This document shows positions 11,802 through 40,523 of a stretch of 64,000 nucleotides of DNA, in pieces; the first letter of the stretch is position 1, and every line of letters begins with the position of its first letter. The stretch covers positions 416,001-480,000 of the forward strand of contig CM000436.1 in the NCBI GenBank assembly GCA_000165345.1. The letters run 5' to 3'. The position numbers and the translations under genes were made by a program. The notes below the pieces were generated by a model that was not told the DNA's origin, did not search any database, and was given only the letters and a program-made list of their open reading frames with translations.

Positions 11802-12659
11802 TTATGTGGAGTTTAACTTTTGATTTGAGTATATATCTTCAAGTTGTTTGATTTTATTCTTGATTGACTTATACTCAAGATATTCTTTTTCTATAGGTAG
11901 TAAATCTTTGTGATATAGAACTTTTCTGTGGTTTTTTTTGAGAAATTGATCTTGAAATGTTTCCAGCAATCCTCTTAGTTGAGTTTTCTTTTTTTTCAGA
12001 GACTCTATTTCTGATATTAGATCTTGTGTGGGATGATTTTTGGTCCGATAAGTTGAATCCTTGAGATGCCTGTACAGTAAATACAAGGGTTTAAGTGGTT
12101 CTTTGTCGGATTTTGACGGTAGTTTTCCATATAACATTTGAAAGTCTGAATCGAACTTCTTTAACTCACTTTTTATGTTACTTTTAAGAGTATTCAAGAA
12201 ATTGTTATTATTGGTGGTGGTAATAAATGTTAGGGAATTAACATTATCAGAATTATTTCCTGTCTCTGTATTAACAAGTGGATTATTAGGAATATTAATG
12301 ATACCATTTTCTGTTAATTCTAGACCCAAAGTTTCTAAGATAGATAATAATCTTTCTTCTCCAGAAATATCGGAATCGTTAGTAAATTGATTAATTTGGC
12401 TATTATTTAATAGTAATTGATACCTTTCATTAACTTTTTTTTGAGTTTCAATCAACTTGTAGTTGATACTTTCTAAGCTAGAAAGATTATTATTAATATT
12501 ATTTTCTTCATATTGAGCTTTAACAACTTGAAATTGGTAGAAACTAGGGATATTTTTAATATATAAATTCACCAACCTAGATGCTTCATTGTTCATAATG
12601 TATAACTTTTGATCTATGTTTGATTTACCATCCAACTCTTCTTTTTGATATTGGAACAA
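11802..12659 (-). CDS. Hypothetical protein (285 aa), N/K-rich, partly coiled-coil
   Basis: Clean ORF on the minus strand, flanked by a 900-bp AT-rich intergenic region shared with the divergent REI1 gene. No recognisable domain. Confidence 0.45.
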   Translation of the reverse strand: MFQYQKEELDGKSNIDQKLYIMNNEASRLVNLYIKNIPSFYQFQVVKAQYEENNINNNLSSLESINYKLIETQKKVNERYQLLLNNSQINQFTNDSDISGEERLLSILETLGLELTENGIINIPNNPLVNTETGNNSDNVNSLTFITTTNNNNFLNTLKSNIKSELKKFDSDFQMLYGKLPSKSDKEPLKPLYLLYRHLKDSTYRTKNHPTQDLISEIESLKKKKTQLRGLLETFQDQFLKKNHRKVLYHKDLLPIEKEYLEYKSIKNKIKQLEDIYSNQKLNST

Positions 12660-17190: not shown

Positions 17191-17424
17191 ATGGAATACC
17201 AAATATAAACTAGCCATTATATATTTAAGTAACTTTATATTAGAAATATAATACTTATAATACAATTCTAAAAATAATAATTATAATAATAAGACTATTT
17301 ACTTGTATTTATCATAATCTTTAATCTCCAATGTCTAAATTTTTAAATGTTATATAAAACTAATATTATTCTATAACAATAATGTATAAAATTTCGAGTG
17401 AATTTATTTATATATAAAAAAAAG

Positions 17425-17498
17425 CGCCGCCACTGGGGATCGAACCCAGGACCACATGGTTAAGAGCCATGCGCTCTACCTAGCTGAGCTATAGCGGC
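17425..17498 (-). tRNA. tRNA-Lys (anticodon CUU)
   Basis: Reverse complement reads GCCGCTA-TA-GCTCAGCTAGGTAGAGC-G-CATGG-CTCTTAA-CCATG-TGGTC-CTGGG-TTCGATC-CCCAG-TGGCGGC-G. 7-bp acceptor stem, D arm, 5-bp anticodon stem with loop CTCTTAA (anticodon CTT), T arm with TTCGATC loop. No encoded CCA. Confidence 0.85.
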
Positions 17499-17846
17499 TT
17501 ACGATGTACAGTACTGAGTAGAGAATAATAATAAAATAATTTTCAATAGAAATTTATAATCAATTTGACATTTTGCAGTTGGCATTTTTTTTCAGCTTGA
17601 AAAAAAAAATGTTAAAGCGGTCAAAGTTTGAAATATTTAATTAAAGTTTTTAATTTTTCTTGATCAATATTTTGAACTAATAATGCATTCAAGGAAAAGA
17701 AATTAGAAAGAAAAGAAAAGTGAGAGAAGAAGAGAGAGAATAGAAAGAAAAAAAGAATTGATGTAAATATCTTTTTTTTTAATATAACAATAGTAGCATT
17801 CAAATACAAATATAGCTATAAATTTAATTGAATAAAATAATAAAGC

Positions 17847-33026: not shown

Positions 33027-33554
33027 CTTATTTGGCTCCCATTATATTTTAGTAATTTCCCTATTATATTTAAGACCTATTTCAAAACTTCCAATTTTAC
33101 AGCTTATTATTTTATTTTTTTAATTAACTAATTTATAGCTAAAATATTACTACTTTATCTGATTTACTTTCCTGACAAAATTTATCTAATTATAAGAAAA
33201 TTAGTAGTTTCCACATAAAATAATATAATGCCAAATTTAAAGAAAATTTATTAAATTAAATATACAAATATATTTCCCTCCAAAATCAAGTTCAACAAAT
33301 TATTAAATTTCTCCATATTTTTTTTTCATAAACTTAATTGACTAAATACTGTACAAATCCTATTCCTTTCTTTCATAATAGCTTTATTTTTCATTCAATG
33401 TCGTCTTTCAGACTTTTATTACTATTCATGCTTTAAACCAGAAATATTCAATTAATAACAATTTACATGCAAACATTAACGTTAGAGGTTCTATTCCCAA
33501 AGGGGCAGCTTTTTTTTTAATTTAACAATAAACCTTTTAAGAAAAATCAAGGAG

Positions 33555-33576
33555 AATTTTGCATGCATGCAAAATT
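33555..33576. promoter_or_regulatory. Perfect 22-bp palindrome AATTTTGCATGCATGCAAAATT (TGCATGCA AP2-like core) upstream of the 2120-aa GHKL-protein gene
   Basis: Direct reading; the reverse complement is identical. TGCATGCA is a known over-represented apicomplexan upstream motif (ApiAP2-type). Confidence 0.55.
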
Positions 33577-33663
33577 TCAATATAAATGAGAAATAATGAA
33601 ATAAAGAAATAAAGCATTAAAGAAAAGTAGAAATTATATATGAATTAGAAAAATTGACTTGAA

Positions 33664-35091
33664 TTATATTGAAAGACTTGTTTTAAAAGATATTGTTTTG
33701 AGTTCATATGAATTTATATCTAAAAGCACCAAAGTAGGGTTATTAGAGAACTCAGGAATGGTGAAGCATAATGGTCCATTATTAGGGAATCTATATGACC
33801 CAAATTCTGATTGATTTCCTGCAAAAATGACTTGTGGAAAAGATTCATCGGTATAATCCAAAGCAAAAGGATCACGATCGAAGAATGGGTAAGTAGGTAT
33901 TACATCAGGGCATGTAGGAGCAATATTTCTTGATTCAACACAAAATTTGAGAGCATCAATAGGCTTCGAATATGAAGAAAATAGAGAAATCTTTGAAATA
34001 CATTGGCCAGAAACACCAGTTACTCTTACATTGTTAATAGAAAACAAGCAAGGATTTGTGAAAGAATTAAACGACTGATAGTTTCTTGAATTTTTGAATA
34101 TATAAGGCTGGAAAGGAGGTTGAGGAAGAGAAATTGGAACAGGATCATCCTCTCCAGGCATGATCGCAAGAGATATAGTGGAAGCCAGCTGAGAAATAAA
34201 GGAATCAACCACACCAAGCCTGCTTGAAAGCAACTCATTATTTACAACTAACTTGGTTCCAGTACCAGTAACAGTCTCTTTTGCAGTATCTAAAAGTCTA
34301 ATAATGTTTCCTGCTATAATTAAGTAAGCAATTTGTGATGATAAAAGTTTGTGTTCGCTACTATATGAAGAAACTCCCATAATGAAATCACGAAATAATT
34401 GTAAAGATAATGAATTCTCTATTTCTGATCCTATATTTAAACCGGAAACAAAAGCCAAATATACTGGCTGAGAAGACTTCCCTAATGTATATTCTTTTCC
34501 AATAATCTCTTCAGGAGGAGAGGCAAAAGTCAAATCCGAGACTAGAAAGTTGCCCCCTGAATTTTGTACTCCCCTTACTGCTAGTATGGTACCAGAAATC
34601 AAATTATTCATTGAAAATACATCTTCTTTTAGAGTCAATGGAATTCTTGATGAACTATCCTCTATATAAACCTTGTCATCATTACTAGTATAATTGCTTA
34701 ATTGACTGTTCTTTGTAGCCTCTTCGATATCTTGAAGATACTCATCCAAAATTGTTGGTCTATTTTTCATTTCCTTTGTCACAAACCCCATGATAATGCA
34801 TTCAGACTCAATTTTCATATCTTTAAGCTCATTCAAAATAGGTATCGATCTATCCTCAGGGTTACCCTGACTTGCAATCTTCTCAACTTTTTCCTGTTCT
34901 ACTGAAAGATGGCACTTCCACTTTCTCTGTACTGCTTTCAATAAAAATGGACGCAAACTCATGAACCTTGAAAAACATAAGTGGCAGTACTGGTGTGGAA
35001 AGCTGTAATCTTTTACTCTAAATCGTTCACATTCATTCTTAATATCTACTTCCGGCCGTTTCAGGCTCTTAACATCTTTTTCTAATTTCAT
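33664..35091 (-). CDS. POLD2: DNA polymerase delta small (B) subunit, POLD2/Pol31
   Basis: Phosphoesterase-domain blocks IMPGEDDP..SLPQPPF ... TNPCLFSINNVRVTGVSGQCISKI ... APTCPDVIPTYPFFDRDPFAL ... VIFAGNQSEFGS align with POLD2 (MPGEFDP..LPQQPLH ... [20 protein letters not shown] ... DPFIF ... FCGNTPSFGS). N-terminal OB region QYCHLCFSRFMSLRPFL matches QYAHIYATRLIQMRPFL. Confidence 0.85.
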   Translation of the reverse strand: MKLEKDVKSLKRPEVDIKNECERFRVKDYSFPHQYCHLCFSRFMSLRPFLLKAVQRKWKCHLSVEQEKVEKIASQGNPEDRSIPILNELKDMKIESECIIMGFVTKEMKNRPTILDEYLQDIEEATKNSQLSNYTSNDDKVYIEDSSSRIPLTLKEDVFSMNNLISGTILAVRGVQNSGGNFLVSDLTFASPPEEIIGKEYTLGKSSQPVYLAFVSGLNIGSEIENSLSLQLFRDFIMGVSSYSSEHKLLSSQIAYLIIAGNIIRLLDTAKETVTGTGTKLVVNNELLSSRLGVVDSFISQLASTISLAIMPGEDDPVPISLPQPPFQPYIFKNSRNYQSFNSFTNPCLFSINNVRVTGVSGQCISKISLFSSYSKPIDALKFCVESRNIAPTCPDVIPTYPFFDRDPFALDYTDESFPQVIFAGNQSEFGSYRFPNNGPLCFTIPEFSNNPTLVLLDINSYELKTISFKTSLSI

Positions 35092-35233
35092 TGGGAAATA
35101 CCTTGATCCTCTCTAATGCTTATAAATGAAACACACAACACCTAAGTTCTTTGCTTAATCTATTTTCCTTCTTATTTTATCGATCCCCCTTTCCCACTTT
35201 TAAAATATTCTCGACTCCCTATTAAAAAACAAT

Positions 35234-35296
35234 GGGCGGGAGCTCACTCACATTCATTACTATTACTAGTCTAAGCATGTTGGCGCCAAAACATGT
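35234..35296. promoter_or_regulatory. E2F-like cluster in the POLD2 upstream region: GGGCGGGAG and the palindromic CATGTTGGCGCCAAAACATG
   Basis: Direct reading. TTGGCGCCAA core (35280-35289) is a perfect palindrome. 140-200 bp upstream of the POLD2 start (minus strand). Confidence 0.55.
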
Positions 35297-35570
35297 ATTT
35301 CATAAACTAATAATAAATTCTTTTTGGCAACAAAAAGAATTTGTTAAGATGACATACAGATAGTTTATAAGAATTTTAACTAACTTTTATTTCTTTTCTT
35401 TCAAAATCTAATTATTTCTTTCACTATTTAACATTTAATTATTCATCTCTTGAAGTCAGAGACAAAATAACCCAATTTTTCCTCTTTTTAACAACATTCC
35501 ATTTGTCACCCTTAATTAGCACCATTTCTTTTTCTTGTTTTGTTCTAATACTCACTTTTCTTCTTTTGTG

Positions 35571-35589
35571 GGAAACTTCCCGCCAAAAC
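35571..35589. promoter_or_regulatory. E2F-like site GGAAACTTCCCGCCAAAAC between divergent POLD2 and Sld5
   Basis: Direct reading. 124 bp upstream of the predicted Sld5 ATG. Confidence 0.5.
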
Positions 35590-35712
35590 TATTTTTATTG
35601 AAATTAATCATTACTATTAAGAGTTTGATTCAAGTAGTAAAAGTAGGAAAAGTGAAAGAAAACTAAAGTAATAGGTTTGAACTTTGATAAGACTTTATAT
35701 AGACTGAAACTA

Positions 35713-35752
35713 ATGAATCATAATGAGGAGGACCGTCTTCCACTGGAAAAAG
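35713..35752 (+). CDS. SLD5: GINS subunit Sld5, predicted exon 1 (MNHNEEDRLPLEK + 1 nt), donor AAAAAG|GTAGGTTA
   Basis: ATG followed by GTAGGT donor at 35753. Needed to supply a start codon for the open exon 2. Phase 1 matches the exon-2 acceptor. Confidence 0.4.
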
Positions 35753-35931
35753 GTAGGTTAAAGGTGTAATTGACATACTAGTTTCTAAACACATGTGAGG
35801 TAACGTGTGTGTTGGCTCTAGAATTGCCAAGAGCTAATACACTTGGTACTTTAAAAAAGGCTTTGGACTGGGATATAATCTAATAATTAACTTATTTTGT
35901 TTACCTTACATTCTTTGAATCTCTAATTTAG

Positions 35932-36065
35932 AAAATTCGGGGATTAATTTAATTGATGGGAATGACTTGGAATATATTGATAATATATACAGCTCAAAGA
36001 ACTTTGGTTTATCAGATGACTCCCATATTAAGAATCTGAGAAATTCTCAAGAGACTTTGCTTATG
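35932..36065 (+). CDS. SLD5: GINS subunit Sld5, predicted exon 2 (...NLRNSQETLLM), acceptor tttag|, donor ATG|GTAAGT
   Basis: 44 stop-free codons in an AT-rich genome, bounded by a canonical acceptor (35930-31 AG) and GTAAGT donor (36066). Runs into exon 3 in frame to give ETLLM-SWINELVSPELL, matching the Sld5 N-terminal block (W.NE..aPELL). Confidence 0.6.
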
Positions 36066-36139
36066 GTAAGTTTTATTGTCCAATAATTATATCAACAAAA
36101 ATCCTAAACCACTCATTAACTTAACTTTAAATTAACAAG

Positions 36140-36826
36140 TCATGGATCAATGAGTTAGTATCTCCTGAACTATTAACATACTGTGAGTCTTCAATACAAA
36201 CTCTCTCTCACTCTATTTTCAAAGAAAAAGAAAAACAAAGAATTATGGAAGTTGATGGAGGAATTCTAGGTATCGAAGATAAAATCGAACGTGATCTAAT
36301 TAACCTCCATATTAACAGATCAACTAATATGCTCAAAATGTATCTGAAACAGAGAATAATGAAGATTTCAGAATTCCCTGATTTCTCTATTGCTAATTCA
36401 AGAACTAATAACGATCTAAACTCTGAATCAAATATCAGTCCTGAAGAAGCTATTTTCGCTTTAAAGCTTTCCAAGCTTCAATGGAAGTATTTAGATGAAA
36501 CCATCTCCAAGATGAAAAATACCCTAGCAACAGACTCCTCCGTCCCAATTCCAGCCCCATCCTTACATAGATCCGTAAGATTCAAATGCATTGACTCCAT
36601 TGGAAGAGTTCAATTACAATCTCTTGTAACCCCTGAAAATGTTTCTTTTACTCAATTTGATACTCAAAACCACTTTTCTCAAAATGATTCAGAAGGAGTC
36701 ATCAATATTGAAAAGGGAAAGATATATACATGTAAATATGAAGATGTAAGAACTCTTTTGGACCAAAATACCATCCAACTTTGGCCTTGGCCTCCCATTA
36801 CTAGCAACAAAAACTACTCTTATTAG
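36140..36826 (+). CDS. SLD5: GINS subunit Sld5, exon 3 (contains the listed ORF 36245-36826)
   Basis: SWINELVSPELLTY ... RSTNMLKMYLKQRIMKISEFPDF match Sld5 conserved blocks (WMNEKFAPELLE ... RYVLSSYLRCRLMKIEKFFP). Acceptor AG at 36138-39, in frame with the tracked ORF (35 codons upstream of its Met). Confidence 0.75.
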   Translation, partial: SWINELVSPELLTYCESSIQTLSHSIFKEKEKQRIMEVDGGILGIEDKIERDLINLHINRSTNMLKMYLKQRIMKISEFPDFSIANSRTNNDLNSESNISPEEAIFALKLSKLQWKYLDETISKMKNTLATDSSVPIPAPSLHRSVRFKCIDSIGRVQLQSLVTPENVSFTQFDTQNHFSQNDSEGVINIEKGKIYTCKYEDVRTLLDQNTIQLWPWPPITSNKNYSY

Positions 36827-37285
36827 CTATTTATTTAAAAAAAAAAAGAAAAGAAAAAAAAAAACCTCATTCTCTACCCTCCAAAAAAGCTCAAAAAAGA
36901 GCTCATATAGTCTCATTAACCATTAATATTTACCAATTCATGCTCTTCAAGCTTCCCGCCAATTATTCTATGTGTTATTACTACCTCTGTTTTGCATGTG
37001 TTTTGCCATGAGGGGTTTCGGCGCGGCCCCACAGCGCCAAACTTTGAGTAAATGCAATATGTGCCTAAAGTGTGTTGATAAAAGCCGAAATTTGAAATTA
37101 TATGTTAAACAAAGAGAATTCGTAAGTCCGAATTTATTTGCATACTCAATTATATACATATTATACGTTCTTATATTATATAATAAAAAATAAGCTTAGG
37201 ATCCTTGATATTATAGGAGAAAAAAATAGCTATATAAGGGTTAGTAAGGTCACGAGAGATCATTGATTTTGAATATTGGGAGAAA

Positions 37286-39308: not shown

Positions 39309-40523
39309 ATGATGATTACAAAAGGAGGAGATTACTCAGAATATTCAGAAATACATACACAGGATATTGAGAAATCTAAAGATTATGACCAAGAATGTGT
39401 AGAATTAAGGAAAAGTGTGAGAGAATATCTCGAAAAAGAAAGCAAAATAAACTTATACTTTTCAGAAAAGAAGAGTTATTTGATAAACAAAGAATTTGTA
39501 GATATTCAGGTCCAATTAAACTCACAACTTTGCCCAAAAGTTAAACTTTGGAAACGAATTGAAGAACCAAACTCAAAAGAATTCTCCAAATTAAAAAATA
39601 ACCCAACTCAACATCTTTTTGCAATTAAAATCTATTCAAAACCCCAACTCATTCGGAGAAACATTGTCTATTCTTCAGACAGGAAAATCAGGACCCAAAT
39701 GCATCGTGTAATTAACGAAATCAAGATTCTACAATTCCTTGCAAAAACCGATCCCACATACTACTATATTGCTAAATTACACAAAGTTCTTGAATCTTTT
39801 CCTTCTACCTTATCTTCCGGAAAATTGTATCTCATCTTTGACTTTTTTCCGATTGGACCCACAATGGCGCCCGACACAGGGGCAAGGCGCGCGCGCGCGT
39901 GCCCGGGGTTTGAAAAGAATCTTTTAGTGTATACTCCAAGTCCTGCATTAGAGAGGACAGAGGTAAGTATAAGGAGAATGGCTTACTGTATTGGAGTAGC
40001 TCTATCTAGACTTCATGAGTTAGGGATTGTTCATAGAGATGTAAAACCTGATAATATTATGCTTACACATACTGGAGATGCATTTTTGAATGACTTTAAT
40101 TCTGCAGAATTTTTAATTCAAGGTAAATATGTTCAGGGCACTGAAGGAACATATGCATTTTTTCCTCCTGAGCATTGTAATATAAACAACAATAGCAATA
40201 AAATTGTTACTGAAAGGAACGAATCATCCGAAATCAATGAACAAGAAGAATGTTCCCAATCTACGCTCCAATTGGGATGTCCAGCAGATATGTGGGCTCT
40301 TGGAGTCACAATTTGGTGTTGGTTTTATGGTACACTACCTTTTCAAGGAAATAGTATTTTAGAGCTTTTTGACAATATTACAAAATGTAAGATTGAGTTC
40401 CCTAGACAGCCTACTTTATCAAATGAGTGTATTAATGCCATTTTGCATCTTTTAGACCCAGAACCGAATTCCCGTTGGACTGCTCGTCAGTTTCTTGAGT
40501 CCGACTGGTTTTCTAAAAACTAA
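39309..40523 (+). CDS. Divergent Ser/Thr protein kinase with a GC-rich insertion in the catalytic domain
   Basis: Kinase subdomains FAIKIYSK (VAIK), EIKILQFL (alpha-C Glu), LYLIFDFFPIG (hinge), IVHRDVKPDNIML (catalytic loop), DFN instead of DFG, GTEGTYAFFPPE (APE-like), DMWALGVTIWCWFYGTLPF. Confidence 0.75.
   Translation: MMITKGGDYSEYSEIHTQDIEKSKDYDQECVELRKSVREYLEKESKINLYFSEKKSYLINKEFVDIQVQLNSQLCPKVKLWKRIEEPNSKEFSKLKNNPTQHLFAIKIYSKPQLIRRNIVYSSDRKIRTQMHRVINEIKILQFLAKTDPTYYYIAKLHKVLESFPSTLSSGKLYLIFDFFPIGPTMAPDTGARRARACPGFEKNLLVYTPSPALERTEVSIRRMAYCIGVALSRLHELGIVHRDVKPDNIMLTHTGDAFLNDFNSAEFLIQGKYVQGTEGTYAFFPPEHCNINNNSNKIVTERNESSEINEQEECSQSTLQLGCPADMWALGVTIWCWFYGTLPFQGNSILELFDNITKCKIEFPRQPTLSNECINAILHLLDPEPNSRWTARQFLESDWFSKN
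39866..39915 (+). repeat. GC-rich island with an alternating (CG)6 tract (GGCGCCCGACACAGGGGCAAGGCGCGCGCGCGCGTGCCCGGGG) inside the kinase CDS
   Basis: About 80% GC over roughly 50 nt in a genome of about 30% GC. Encodes an in-frame insertion (MAPDTGARRARACPGF) between hinge and catalytic loop. Confidence 0.8.

What the first reader, a model, noticed from the sequence alone, without database searches (positions are those of the whole stretch)
35091..36826. Divergent DNA-replication gene pair (Pol delta B-subunit and GINS Sld5) sharing an intergenic region studded with E2F-like sites
POLD2 (minus strand, start 35091) and Sld5 (plus strand, start about 35713) are head-to-head, about 620 bp apart. 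Between them lie GGGCGGGAG (35234), the palindromic CATGTTGGCGCCAAAACATG (35277-35296) and GGAAACTTCCCGCCAAAAC (35571-35589). TTTGGCGC / TTTCCCGCC are canonical E2F/DP recognition sequences, and E2F classically drives S-phase genes. Two replisome subunits sharing a bidirectional E2F-type promoter is a compact cell-cycle regulatory module.
Basis: partly seen in the sequence, partly recalled or inferred. Interest (0 to 1): 0.6.

Follow-up and report, generated by a model that had tools for sequence, protein, structure and literature searches.

The report
Known E2F promoter sites, Cryptosporidium replication genes
Two DNA-replication genes of the parasite Cryptosporidium parvum sit back to back with three real, evolutionarily conserved E2F-type sites between them, but such sites are already published as the commonest promoter motif in this organism and mark almost every promoter nearby, so this is an ordinary example of a known feature.

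Summary
The window is Cryptosporidium parvum chromosome 8. POLD2 (cgd8_1620, minus strand, ATG at 35091) and GINS Sld5 (cgd8_1630, plus strand, ATG at 35713, two introns, 286 aa) are head to head across 621 bp. That spacer carries three E2F-type GC cores, where 0.03 are expected by chance. In a four-lineage Cryptosporidium alignment of the spacer, two of them are the only near-invariant 10-mers, and their distances to each ATG are conserved.

The same cores occur in 13 of 15 promoter-containing intergenic regions of this window and in 0 of 7 convergent ones. The genes they precede include cyclophilin, PNO1, PRA1, V-ATPase B and AdhE. [quoted passage not shown] Both genes sit in published clusters already flagged for the motif.

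The sites form two gene-proximal groups rather than one shared element. In C. serpentis an F-box gene separates the pair, and each gene keeps its own site. The best reading is two back-to-back E2F/DP-type promoters. The motif alone cannot confer S-phase specificity. Already known; low interest.

The parts
33664..35091 (-). POLD2 (DNA polymerase delta B-subunit, cgd8_1620), single exon, 475 aa
   Evidence: Pfam PF18018 at 1.4e-34 and PF04042 at 1.7e-30. Exact match to C. parvum 'DNA polymerase delta2'. Orthologues in 9 other Cryptosporidium species or genotypes.
35092..35712 (.). 621-bp divergent intergenic spacer, 29% G+C, holding both promoters
   Evidence: Only 24% of columns are invariant across four lineages.
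35234..35242 (-). Site A: GGGCGGGAG (minus strand CTCCCGCCC), core 35235-35240, 144 nt from the POLD2 ATG. Partial E2F match, because the flank is C rather than T in C. parvum.
   Evidence: TTCCCGCC is kept at -146 to -149 in C. hominis, chipmunk genotype I and C. ubiquitum, and as GCCGCC in C. canis. It is absent in C. felis, C. xiaoi and C. ryanae.
35276..35295 (.). Site B: CATG-TTGGCGCCAA-AACATG. The core is a perfect 10-bp palindrome at 35280-35289. It reads TTTTGGCGCC on the POLD2 sense strand, 191 nt from the POLD2 ATG.
   Evidence: TGTTGGCGCC is 10/10 invariant in four lineages. GGCGCC lies at -187 to -243 from the POLD2 ATG in eight species or genotypes. Flanking ACATGY matches published motif 7, which is flagged for POLD2's cluster 88.
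35567..35572 (+). G-box-like TGTGGG next to site C, a possible ApiAP2 site
   Evidence: TGTGGG is kept in C. hominis and chipmunk genotype I, and is TGTGGGG in C. canis. G-box motif 2 is flagged for the Sld5 cluster 45. Reported C. parvum AP2 domains bind G[T/C]GGGG.
35577..35588 (+). Site C: TTCCCGCCAAAA (minus strand TTTTGGCGGGAA), core 35579-35584, 134 nt upstream of the Sld5 ATG
   Evidence: CGCCAAAACT is 9/10 invariant in four lineages. TTTTGGCGGGAA is kept about 107-130 nt from the Sld5 ATG in C. hominis, chipmunk genotype I, C. ubiquitum and C. felis. C. canis has GGCGCC at 116 nt and C. xiaoi has the site at 199 nt.
35713..36826 (+). GINS Sld5 (cgd8_1630), three exons (35713-35752, 35932-36065, 36140-36826), 286 aa
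   Evidence: The splice model has canonical GTAGGT and GTAAGT donors and AG acceptors. Exact match to the annotated C. parvum Sld5. PDB hits are all SLD5, E=1.2e-5. Pfam hits to SLD5_C and Sld5 are weak.

Best explanation
The 621-bp spacer between C. parvum POLD2 and Sld5 holds two back-to-back promoters. Each has its own proximal E2F/DP-type site or sites, about 130-190 bp upstream of its start codon. Sites A and B serve POLD2, and site C, with an adjacent G-box-like element, serves Sld5.

The sites are most likely bound by the parasite's E2F/DP heterodimers and are needed for promoter activity. That step is inferred, not shown. In Cryptosporidium this motif is a near-universal promoter element rather than an S-phase-specific switch. 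Any replication-specific timing of these two genes must therefore come from something else: the number, quality or context of the sites, neighbouring motifs such as ACATG and the G-box, or which E2F/DP pair is active.

Shown here: the presence of the sites, their enrichment, their restriction to promoter regions, and their conservation. Inferred: E2F/DP binding, and the assignment of each site to a gene.
For: - Enrichment: three cores against 0.033 expected in the spacer; 19 against 0.56 expected for TTSSCGCC in the window.
- Promoter restriction: 13 of 15 promoter-containing intergenic regions carry a core, against 0 of 7 convergent ones, Fisher p=2e-4.
- Footprinting: the only 10-mers that are at least 9/10 invariant across C. 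parvum, chipmunk genotype I, C. ubiquitum and C. canis are sites B and C. They persist although the C. canis spacer is 50% G+C against 29% here.
- Distances to each gene's ATG are conserved. This holds even in C. felis, where the spacer is only 341 bp.
- In C. serpentis an F-box gene lies between the two genes, and each gene still has a proximal GC core.
- Literature: C. parvum has two E2F and two DP genes. The E2F motif dominates upstream regions and sporozoite ATAC-seq peaks, and more than half of those peaks are annotated as bidirectional promoters.
- Both genes lie in published expression clusters flagged for E2F-like motif 3.
- The C. parvum AP2 domain specificities reported (TGCAT, CACACA, G-box) do not include this motif.
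Against: - No direct binding data (ChIP, EMSA) exist for any Cryptosporidium E2F/DP.
- The transcription start sites of the two genes were not available here, so 'proximal' is measured from the ATG.
- Assigning a site to a gene by distance is an inference. Site B is palindromic and could act in both directions.
- Site A is not kept in C. felis, C. xiaoi or C. ryanae.
Confidence: 0.7

Rival explanations
1. One reading: the three sites form one shared bidirectional E2F promoter, a dedicated S-phase module that co-regulates two replisome subunits.
For: - The sites are canonical and conserved.
- Earlier work found E2F-like motifs over-represented upstream of C. parvum DNA-replication genes (citing PMC1779779).
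- POLD2 clusters with PSF2 and CDC45, and Sld5 clusters with the Pol delta catalytic subunit.
- E2F and DP transcripts are enriched in asexual, replicating stages.
- In C. felis sites B and C are only about 47 bp apart.
Against: - The motif marks 13 of 15 promoter regions in the window whatever the gene function. Genome-wide it is upstream of 2,379 genes with no characteristic expression pattern.
- No pRb orthologue is reported.
- The two genes are in different published clusters.
- The sites sit in two groups about 300 bp apart.
- The pair is split in C. serpentis, with sites retained on each side.
Confidence: 0.2
2. The conserved GC cores work without E2F/DP. They might be bound by another factor, or act as a general GC-rich element that defines promoters or excludes nucleosomes in an AT-rich genome.
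For: - The sites are nearly universal at promoters and absent from 3'-3' spacers.
- They dominate open-chromatin peaks.
- No binding experiment links them to E2F/DP.
Against: - The flanks follow the E2F consensus (a T-run 5' and an A-run 3' of an SSCGSS core), not merely GC richness.
- E2F and DP genes are retained only in this apicomplexan genus, the one where the motif is abundant.
- None of the reported C. parvum AP2 specificities is this motif.
Confidence: 0.1
3. The three motifs are chance matches in an intergenic region.
For: Short degenerate motifs often occur by chance.
Against: The mean is 0.033 per shuffle, and none of 5000 shuffles reached 3. The sites are the most conserved blocks of the spacer across species.
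Confidence: 0.01

Closest known systems
E2F-like upstream motifs of Cryptosporidium parvum (motif 3 DTTGSCGCCH and motif 4 TTTGGCGGGAAV; Oberstaller et al. 2013, PMC3734150; first seen on chromosome 6 by Bankier et al. 2003; ATAC-seq peaks in bioRxiv 10.1101/2025.01.17.633476)
   Same: Same organism and same sequences: site B fits motif 3 and site C fits motif 4. The location upstream of genes is the same. Both genes, cgd8_1620 and cgd8_1630, are in clusters (88 and 45) already flagged for motif 3.
   Different: Nothing essential differs. This particular gene pair is not named in the main text of any paper in the searched library. The cross-species footprint of this spacer was not in the papers read here.
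Animal and plant E2F/DP-pRb control of S-phase genes (TTTSSCGC sites upstream of MCM, PCNA, polymerase and GINS genes)
   Same: The consensus sequence is the same and the target genes are replisome subunits. E2F and DP proteins are encoded by the organism (literature).
   Different: No pRb orthologue and few partner proteins are reported in Cryptosporidium. The motif lies upstream of roughly 70% of genes, with no common expression pattern. Cell-cycle gating by the classical switch therefore cannot be assumed.
Bidirectional promoters of compact genomes (reported for C. parvum from ATAC-seq and lncRNA studies, PMC7840661; also Giardia)
   Same: Head-to-head genes, a short spacer, and a palindromic site (B) that could work in both directions.
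   Different: Here the sites form two gene-proximal groups, and the gene pair is separable in evolution (C. serpentis). The layout looks like two adjacent promoters rather than one shared core.

Membership tests
E2F/DP binding site | Sequence fits TTTSSCGC: a 6-bp SSCGSS core flanked by a T-run and an A-run | tested here: met
   Site B reads TTTTGGCGCCAA and site C reads TTTTGGCGGGAA on the minus strand. Site A is only partial in C. parvum (CTCCCGCC); C. hominis has TTCCCGCC.
E2F/DP binding site | The organism encodes E2F and DP DNA-binding proteins | not tested
   Taken from the literature only: cgd1_1560 and cgd6_1430 (E2F), cgd7_3650 and cgd8_1850 (DP). None of these genes lies in the window.
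E2F/DP binding site | Located in promoter regions upstream of genes, not in 3' spacers | tested here: met
   13 of 15 promoter-containing regions against 0 of 7 convergent regions, p=2e-4. The sites are 134-191 nt from the ATGs. Transcription start sites are unknown.
E2F/DP binding site | Under purifying selection (phylogenetic footprint) | tested here: met
   Sites B and C are the only near-invariant 10-mers in the four-lineage alignment. Their positions are kept in up to eight species or genotypes.
E2F/DP binding site | Occupied by E2F/DP in vitro or in vivo | not testable with these tools
   No ChIP or EMSA data for Cryptosporidium E2F/DP were found.
Cell-cycle (S-phase) E2F regulon | The motif is preferentially associated with replication or S-phase genes | tested here: not met
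   In the window the motif precedes cyclophilin, PNO1, PRA1, V-ATPase B, AdhE, MFS, a kinase and others. Published work reports 163 of 200 clusters with no particular expression pattern.
Cell-cycle (S-phase) E2F regulon | A pocket protein (pRb) partner that gates E2F activity | not tested
Cell-cycle (S-phase) E2F regulon | The two genes are co-expressed with each other and with other replisome genes | tested here: inconclusive
   Published clustering puts POLD2 in cluster 88 with PSF2 and CDC45, and Sld5 in cluster 45 with the Pol delta catalytic subunit. The clusters differ, but both are rich in replisome genes. The expression profiles themselves were not available.
Shared bidirectional promoter | One common element or open region that serves both genes, with the pairing kept in evolution | tested here: inconclusive
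   The head-to-head pairing is kept in eight intestinal-type species or genotypes. In C. serpentis a 660-aa F-box gene splits the pair. The sites form two groups about 300 bp apart in C. parvum but only about 47 bp apart in C. felis.
GINS Sld5 | Homology over both the helical A-domain and the C-terminal B-domain of SLD5 | tested here: met
   phmmer against the PDB: the seven significant hits are all SLD5, with the best at E=1.2e-5 over residues 49-272. Pfam Sld5 and SLD5_C hits are below the curated cut-offs. The protein is annotated as Sld5 in C. parvum, C. hominis, C. tyzzeri and C. meleagridis.
DNA polymerase delta B-subunit (POLD2) | An N-terminal OB-fold domain plus a calcineurin-like phosphodiesterase domain | tested here: met
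   PF18018 at 1.4e-34 and PF04042 at 1.7e-30, both well above the curated cut-offs.

The most novel reading that the evidence does not exclude
In Cryptosporidium, E2F/DP may have been repurposed from a cell-cycle switch into a general promoter-defining factor. Replication-gene timing would then be set by conserved composite elements such as those seen here: an ACATG-flanked palindromic site before POLD2, and a G-box plus E2F site before Sld5. This spacer, with its clean cross-species footprint, would be a convenient test case for that combinatorial code.
Probability: 0.2. Interest if true: 0.45.

Novelty: already known. Interest (0 to 1): 0.15.

Why it matters
The finding adds little that is new. 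It is one well-behaved instance of the published observation that E2F-like motifs dominate Cryptosporidium promoters.

Its practical value is as a compact test locus. The spacer is 621 bp and has three discrete sites, two of them deeply conserved in position, flanking two essential replisome genes. That layout suits reporter or CRISPR mutagenesis aimed at an open question in the field: do E2F/DP proteins really bind these motifs, and do they confer any stage or cell-cycle specificity when no pRb is present?

Tried and rejected
- Rfam scan of the whole window, to ask whether the GC-rich blocks are RNA genes. It found only a tRNA at 17425-17498. That removed one apparent 'site' (17426) from the promoter count.
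- First motif scan with a 7-base S-rich core. It was too strict and missed sites B and C, so it was replaced by SSCGSS.
- Seven-species MAFFT alignment including C. felis and C. xiaoi. The short C. felis spacer misaligned. I used motif-and-distance tables and a four-lineage alignment instead.
- Full-text literature search for the gene IDs cgd8_1620 and cgd8_1630 found nothing.
- Search for ChIP or functional data on Cryptosporidium E2F found none.
- tblastn of the C. serpentis F-box gene against the window gave no hit, so there is no remnant of that gene in the C. parvum spacer.
- A consistent CATG flank at the other GGCGCC sites of the window was looked for and not seen.
- A genome-wide comparison of replication genes against other genes was not possible. 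Only this window and eight orthologous loci were accessible.
Full report
**What the window is.** The sequence is about 30% G+C with tightly packed genes. The minus-strand ORF 33664-35091 is 98% identical to C. hominis POLD2. [quoted passage not shown] The gene lies near 440 kb on contigs of 1.34 Mb. Gene order and the published gene IDs place the window at roughly cgd8_1530 to cgd8_1720 on chromosome 8. POLD2 is cgd8_1620 and its divergent neighbour is cgd8_1630.

**Checking the observation.**
- POLD2 has both diagnostic Pfam domains, at 1.4e-34 and 1.7e-30.
- The plus-strand neighbour starts at 35713 and needs two introns. Exons 35713-35752, 35932-36065 and 36140-36826, with GTAGGT and GTAAGT donors, give 286 aa.
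- That protein is identical to the one annotated 'GINS complex subunit Sld5 [C. parvum]'. All seven significant PDB hits are SLD5, with the best at E=1.2e-5 across both domains. Its Pfam hits are weak.
- The spacer is 621 bp.
- GGGCGGGAG is at 35234-35242 and GGAAACTTCCCGCCAAAAC at 35571-35589, as stated. The 20-mer is at 35276-35295, one base off. Only its 10-bp core TTGGCGCCAA is a true palindrome.
- Three SSCGSS cores in this 29% G+C spacer compare with 0.033 expected. None of 5000 dinucleotide shuffles reached three.
- Across the window, TTGGCGCC occurs 10 times against 0.16 expected, TTCCCGCC 8 times against 0.26, and TTSSCGCC 19 times against 0.56.

**Conservation.** I fetched the orthologous locus from C. 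hominis, chipmunk genotype I, C. ubiquitum, C. canis, C. felis, C. xiaoi, C. ryanae and C. serpentis.
- The head-to-head arrangement, with PRA1 and PNO1 beyond Sld5 and the sacsin/NOV gene beyond POLD2, is kept in all of them except C. serpentis.
- GGCGCC lies 187-243 nt upstream of the POLD2 ATG in every intestinal-type species.
- TTCCCGCC lies at -146 to -149 in the four closest lineages.
- TTTTGGCGGGAA (GGCGCC in C. canis) lies about 107-130 nt upstream of the Sld5 ATG in six lineages and at 199 nt in C. xiaoi.
- In a MAFFT alignment of C. parvum, chipmunk genotype I, C. ubiquitum and C. canis, only 24% of columns are invariant. The only two 10-mers with at least 9 of 10 invariant columns are TGTTGGCGCC (35278-35287) and CGCCAAAACT (35581-35590), which are sites B and C.
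- They persist although the C. canis spacer is 50% G+C.

These are therefore functional elements, not chance matches.

**Specificity.** I mapped 23 ORF-level genes with Pfam and classified the 22 intergenic regions.
- SSCGSS cores occur in 13 of 15 regions that contain at least one promoter and in 0 of 7 convergent 3'-3' regions, Fisher p=2e-4. One apparent site was removed because it lies inside a tRNA gene.
- The genes served include cyclophilin, a CCCH zinc-finger protein, an MFS transporter, PRA1, PNO1, a kinase, V-ATPase B, Fe-ADH, a ThiF-like enzyme and several unknowns.
- Only the sacsin/NOV and Tsr3 upstream regions lack a core.
- Three sites per region is also seen at two other spacers.

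Within this window the motif marks promoters in general and says nothing specific about replication.

**What is already published.**
- Oberstaller et al. 2013 (PMC3734150) report E2F-like motif 3 (DTTGSCGCCH) and motif 4 (TTTGGCGGGAAV) as the most abundant upstream motifs in C. parvum. They are over-represented in 163 of 200 expression clusters (2,379 genes) with 'no particular expression patterns'. The paper also notes that no pRb orthologue exists.
- The same paper cites Mullapudi et al. 2007 for over-representation upstream of DNA-replication and glycolysis genes.
- Its supplement places cgd8_1620 in cluster 88, with GINS PSF2 and CDC45. It places cgd8_1630, then a 'hypothetical protein', in cluster 45, with the Pol delta catalytic subunit.
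- Both clusters are flagged for motif 3. Cluster 88 is also flagged for ACATGY and cluster 45 for a G-box.
- Fittingly, site B is flanked by ACATG on both sides and site C is preceded by TGTGGG.
- A 2025 preprint finds E2F motifs to be the dominant motif in sporozoite ATAC-seq peaks, more than half of which are annotated as bidirectional promoters.
- A 2021 study finds the motif upstream of lncRNAs and proposes bidirectional promoters.
- A 2025 review confirms that no Cryptosporidium E2F/DP has been functionally validated.
- The C. parvum AP2 domain specificities reported are TGCAT, CACACA and the G-box, and the authors treat the E2F motif as a non-AP2 site.

**Mechanism.** The sites fall into two gene-proximal groups. 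Sites A and B are 144 and 191 nt from the POLD2 ATG, and site C is 134 nt from the Sld5 ATG. These distances are typical for the window, where most sites lie 60-400 nt from the nearest ATG they face and a few lie at about 465-540 nt.
- Distances to each ATG are conserved even where the spacer length changes. It is 341 bp in C. felis and 789 bp in C. xiaoi.
- In C. serpentis a 660-aa F-box gene, absent from this window, lies between the two genes. Sld5 and POLD2 each still have a proximal GC core.

I therefore read the spacer as two adjacent E2F/DP-type promoters rather than one shared module. Binding by E2F/DP and any role in S-phase timing remain inferred.

**Verdict.** The E2F-site reading is supported, and the 'dedicated cell-cycle module' reading is not. 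The feature is an ordinary instance of a motif class already described genome-wide for this organism, in clusters that already include both genes. Novelty: already known. Interest: low.

Noticed in passing
window 17425-17498 (-): A tRNA gene (Rfam RF00005, 67.8 bits) lies in the spacer between the CCCH zinc-finger gene and Tsr3. Its GCCGCC would otherwise be miscounted as an E2F-like core.
   Followed up: partly
window 39866-39910: A very GC-rich stretch with a (CG)n run (GGCGCGCGCGCGCGTGCCCGGGG) lies inside the protein-kinase ORF 39309-40523. The Pfam kinase match is split into two stretches in this protein. This is odd for a 30% G+C genome.
   Followed up: no
window 10967, 11246 (USP7-like CDS) and 31158, 31429 (sacsin/NOV CDS): Well-formed E2F-type sites, such as TTTTGGCGGGAA, lie inside coding sequence. 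Both USP7-like sites are in the 3' part of that gene. They may be promoters of antisense lncRNAs, which are reported to carry E2F motifs and to overlap 3' ends (PMC7840661).
   Followed up: no
window 37010-37045: A GC-rich block (GGGGTTTCGGCGCGGCCCCACAGCGCC) lies between Sld5 and PRA1. The corresponding position is GC-rich in most of the other species examined (none seen in C. xiaoi or C. serpentis). It has no Rfam match.
   Followed up: partly
window 11802-12596 (-): A 264-aa protein (cgd8_1540, annotated 'coiled coil, low complexity' or 'FAM13A-like') gives a weak Pfam hit to the N-terminus of Drc1-Sld2 (E=7.5e-4, below the cut-off). It has TTTGGCGCC about 260 nt upstream of its ATG. It might be a third replication-initiation gene, but the evidence is thin.
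   Followed up: partly
L010 1847-3829 (C. serpentis): A 660-aa F-box gene sits between Sld5 and POLD2 in this species. It has no counterpart in the C. parvum window by tblastn, so the head-to-head pairing is not universal in the genus.
   Followed up: partly
L011 3872 (C. canis): The deposited C. canis POLD2 model (425 aa) appears truncated at the N-terminus. An in-frame ATGAAGTCCGAGAAG 129 nt upstream aligns with the start in the other species. The C. canis spacer is 50% G+C against 29% in C. parvum, yet it keeps the E2F-type sites.
   Followed up: partly
window 33027-33663 and 17191-17846: The upstream regions of sacsin/NOV (cgd8_1610) and Tsr3 are the only two promoter-containing spacers in the window without an E2F-type core.
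   Followed up: no
window 35243-35246: Compared with C. hominis, C. parvum has about four extra bases next to site A (GGGCGGGAGCTCAC against GGGCGGGAAC). This changes the flank from TTCCCGCC to CTCCCGCC.
   Followed up: no
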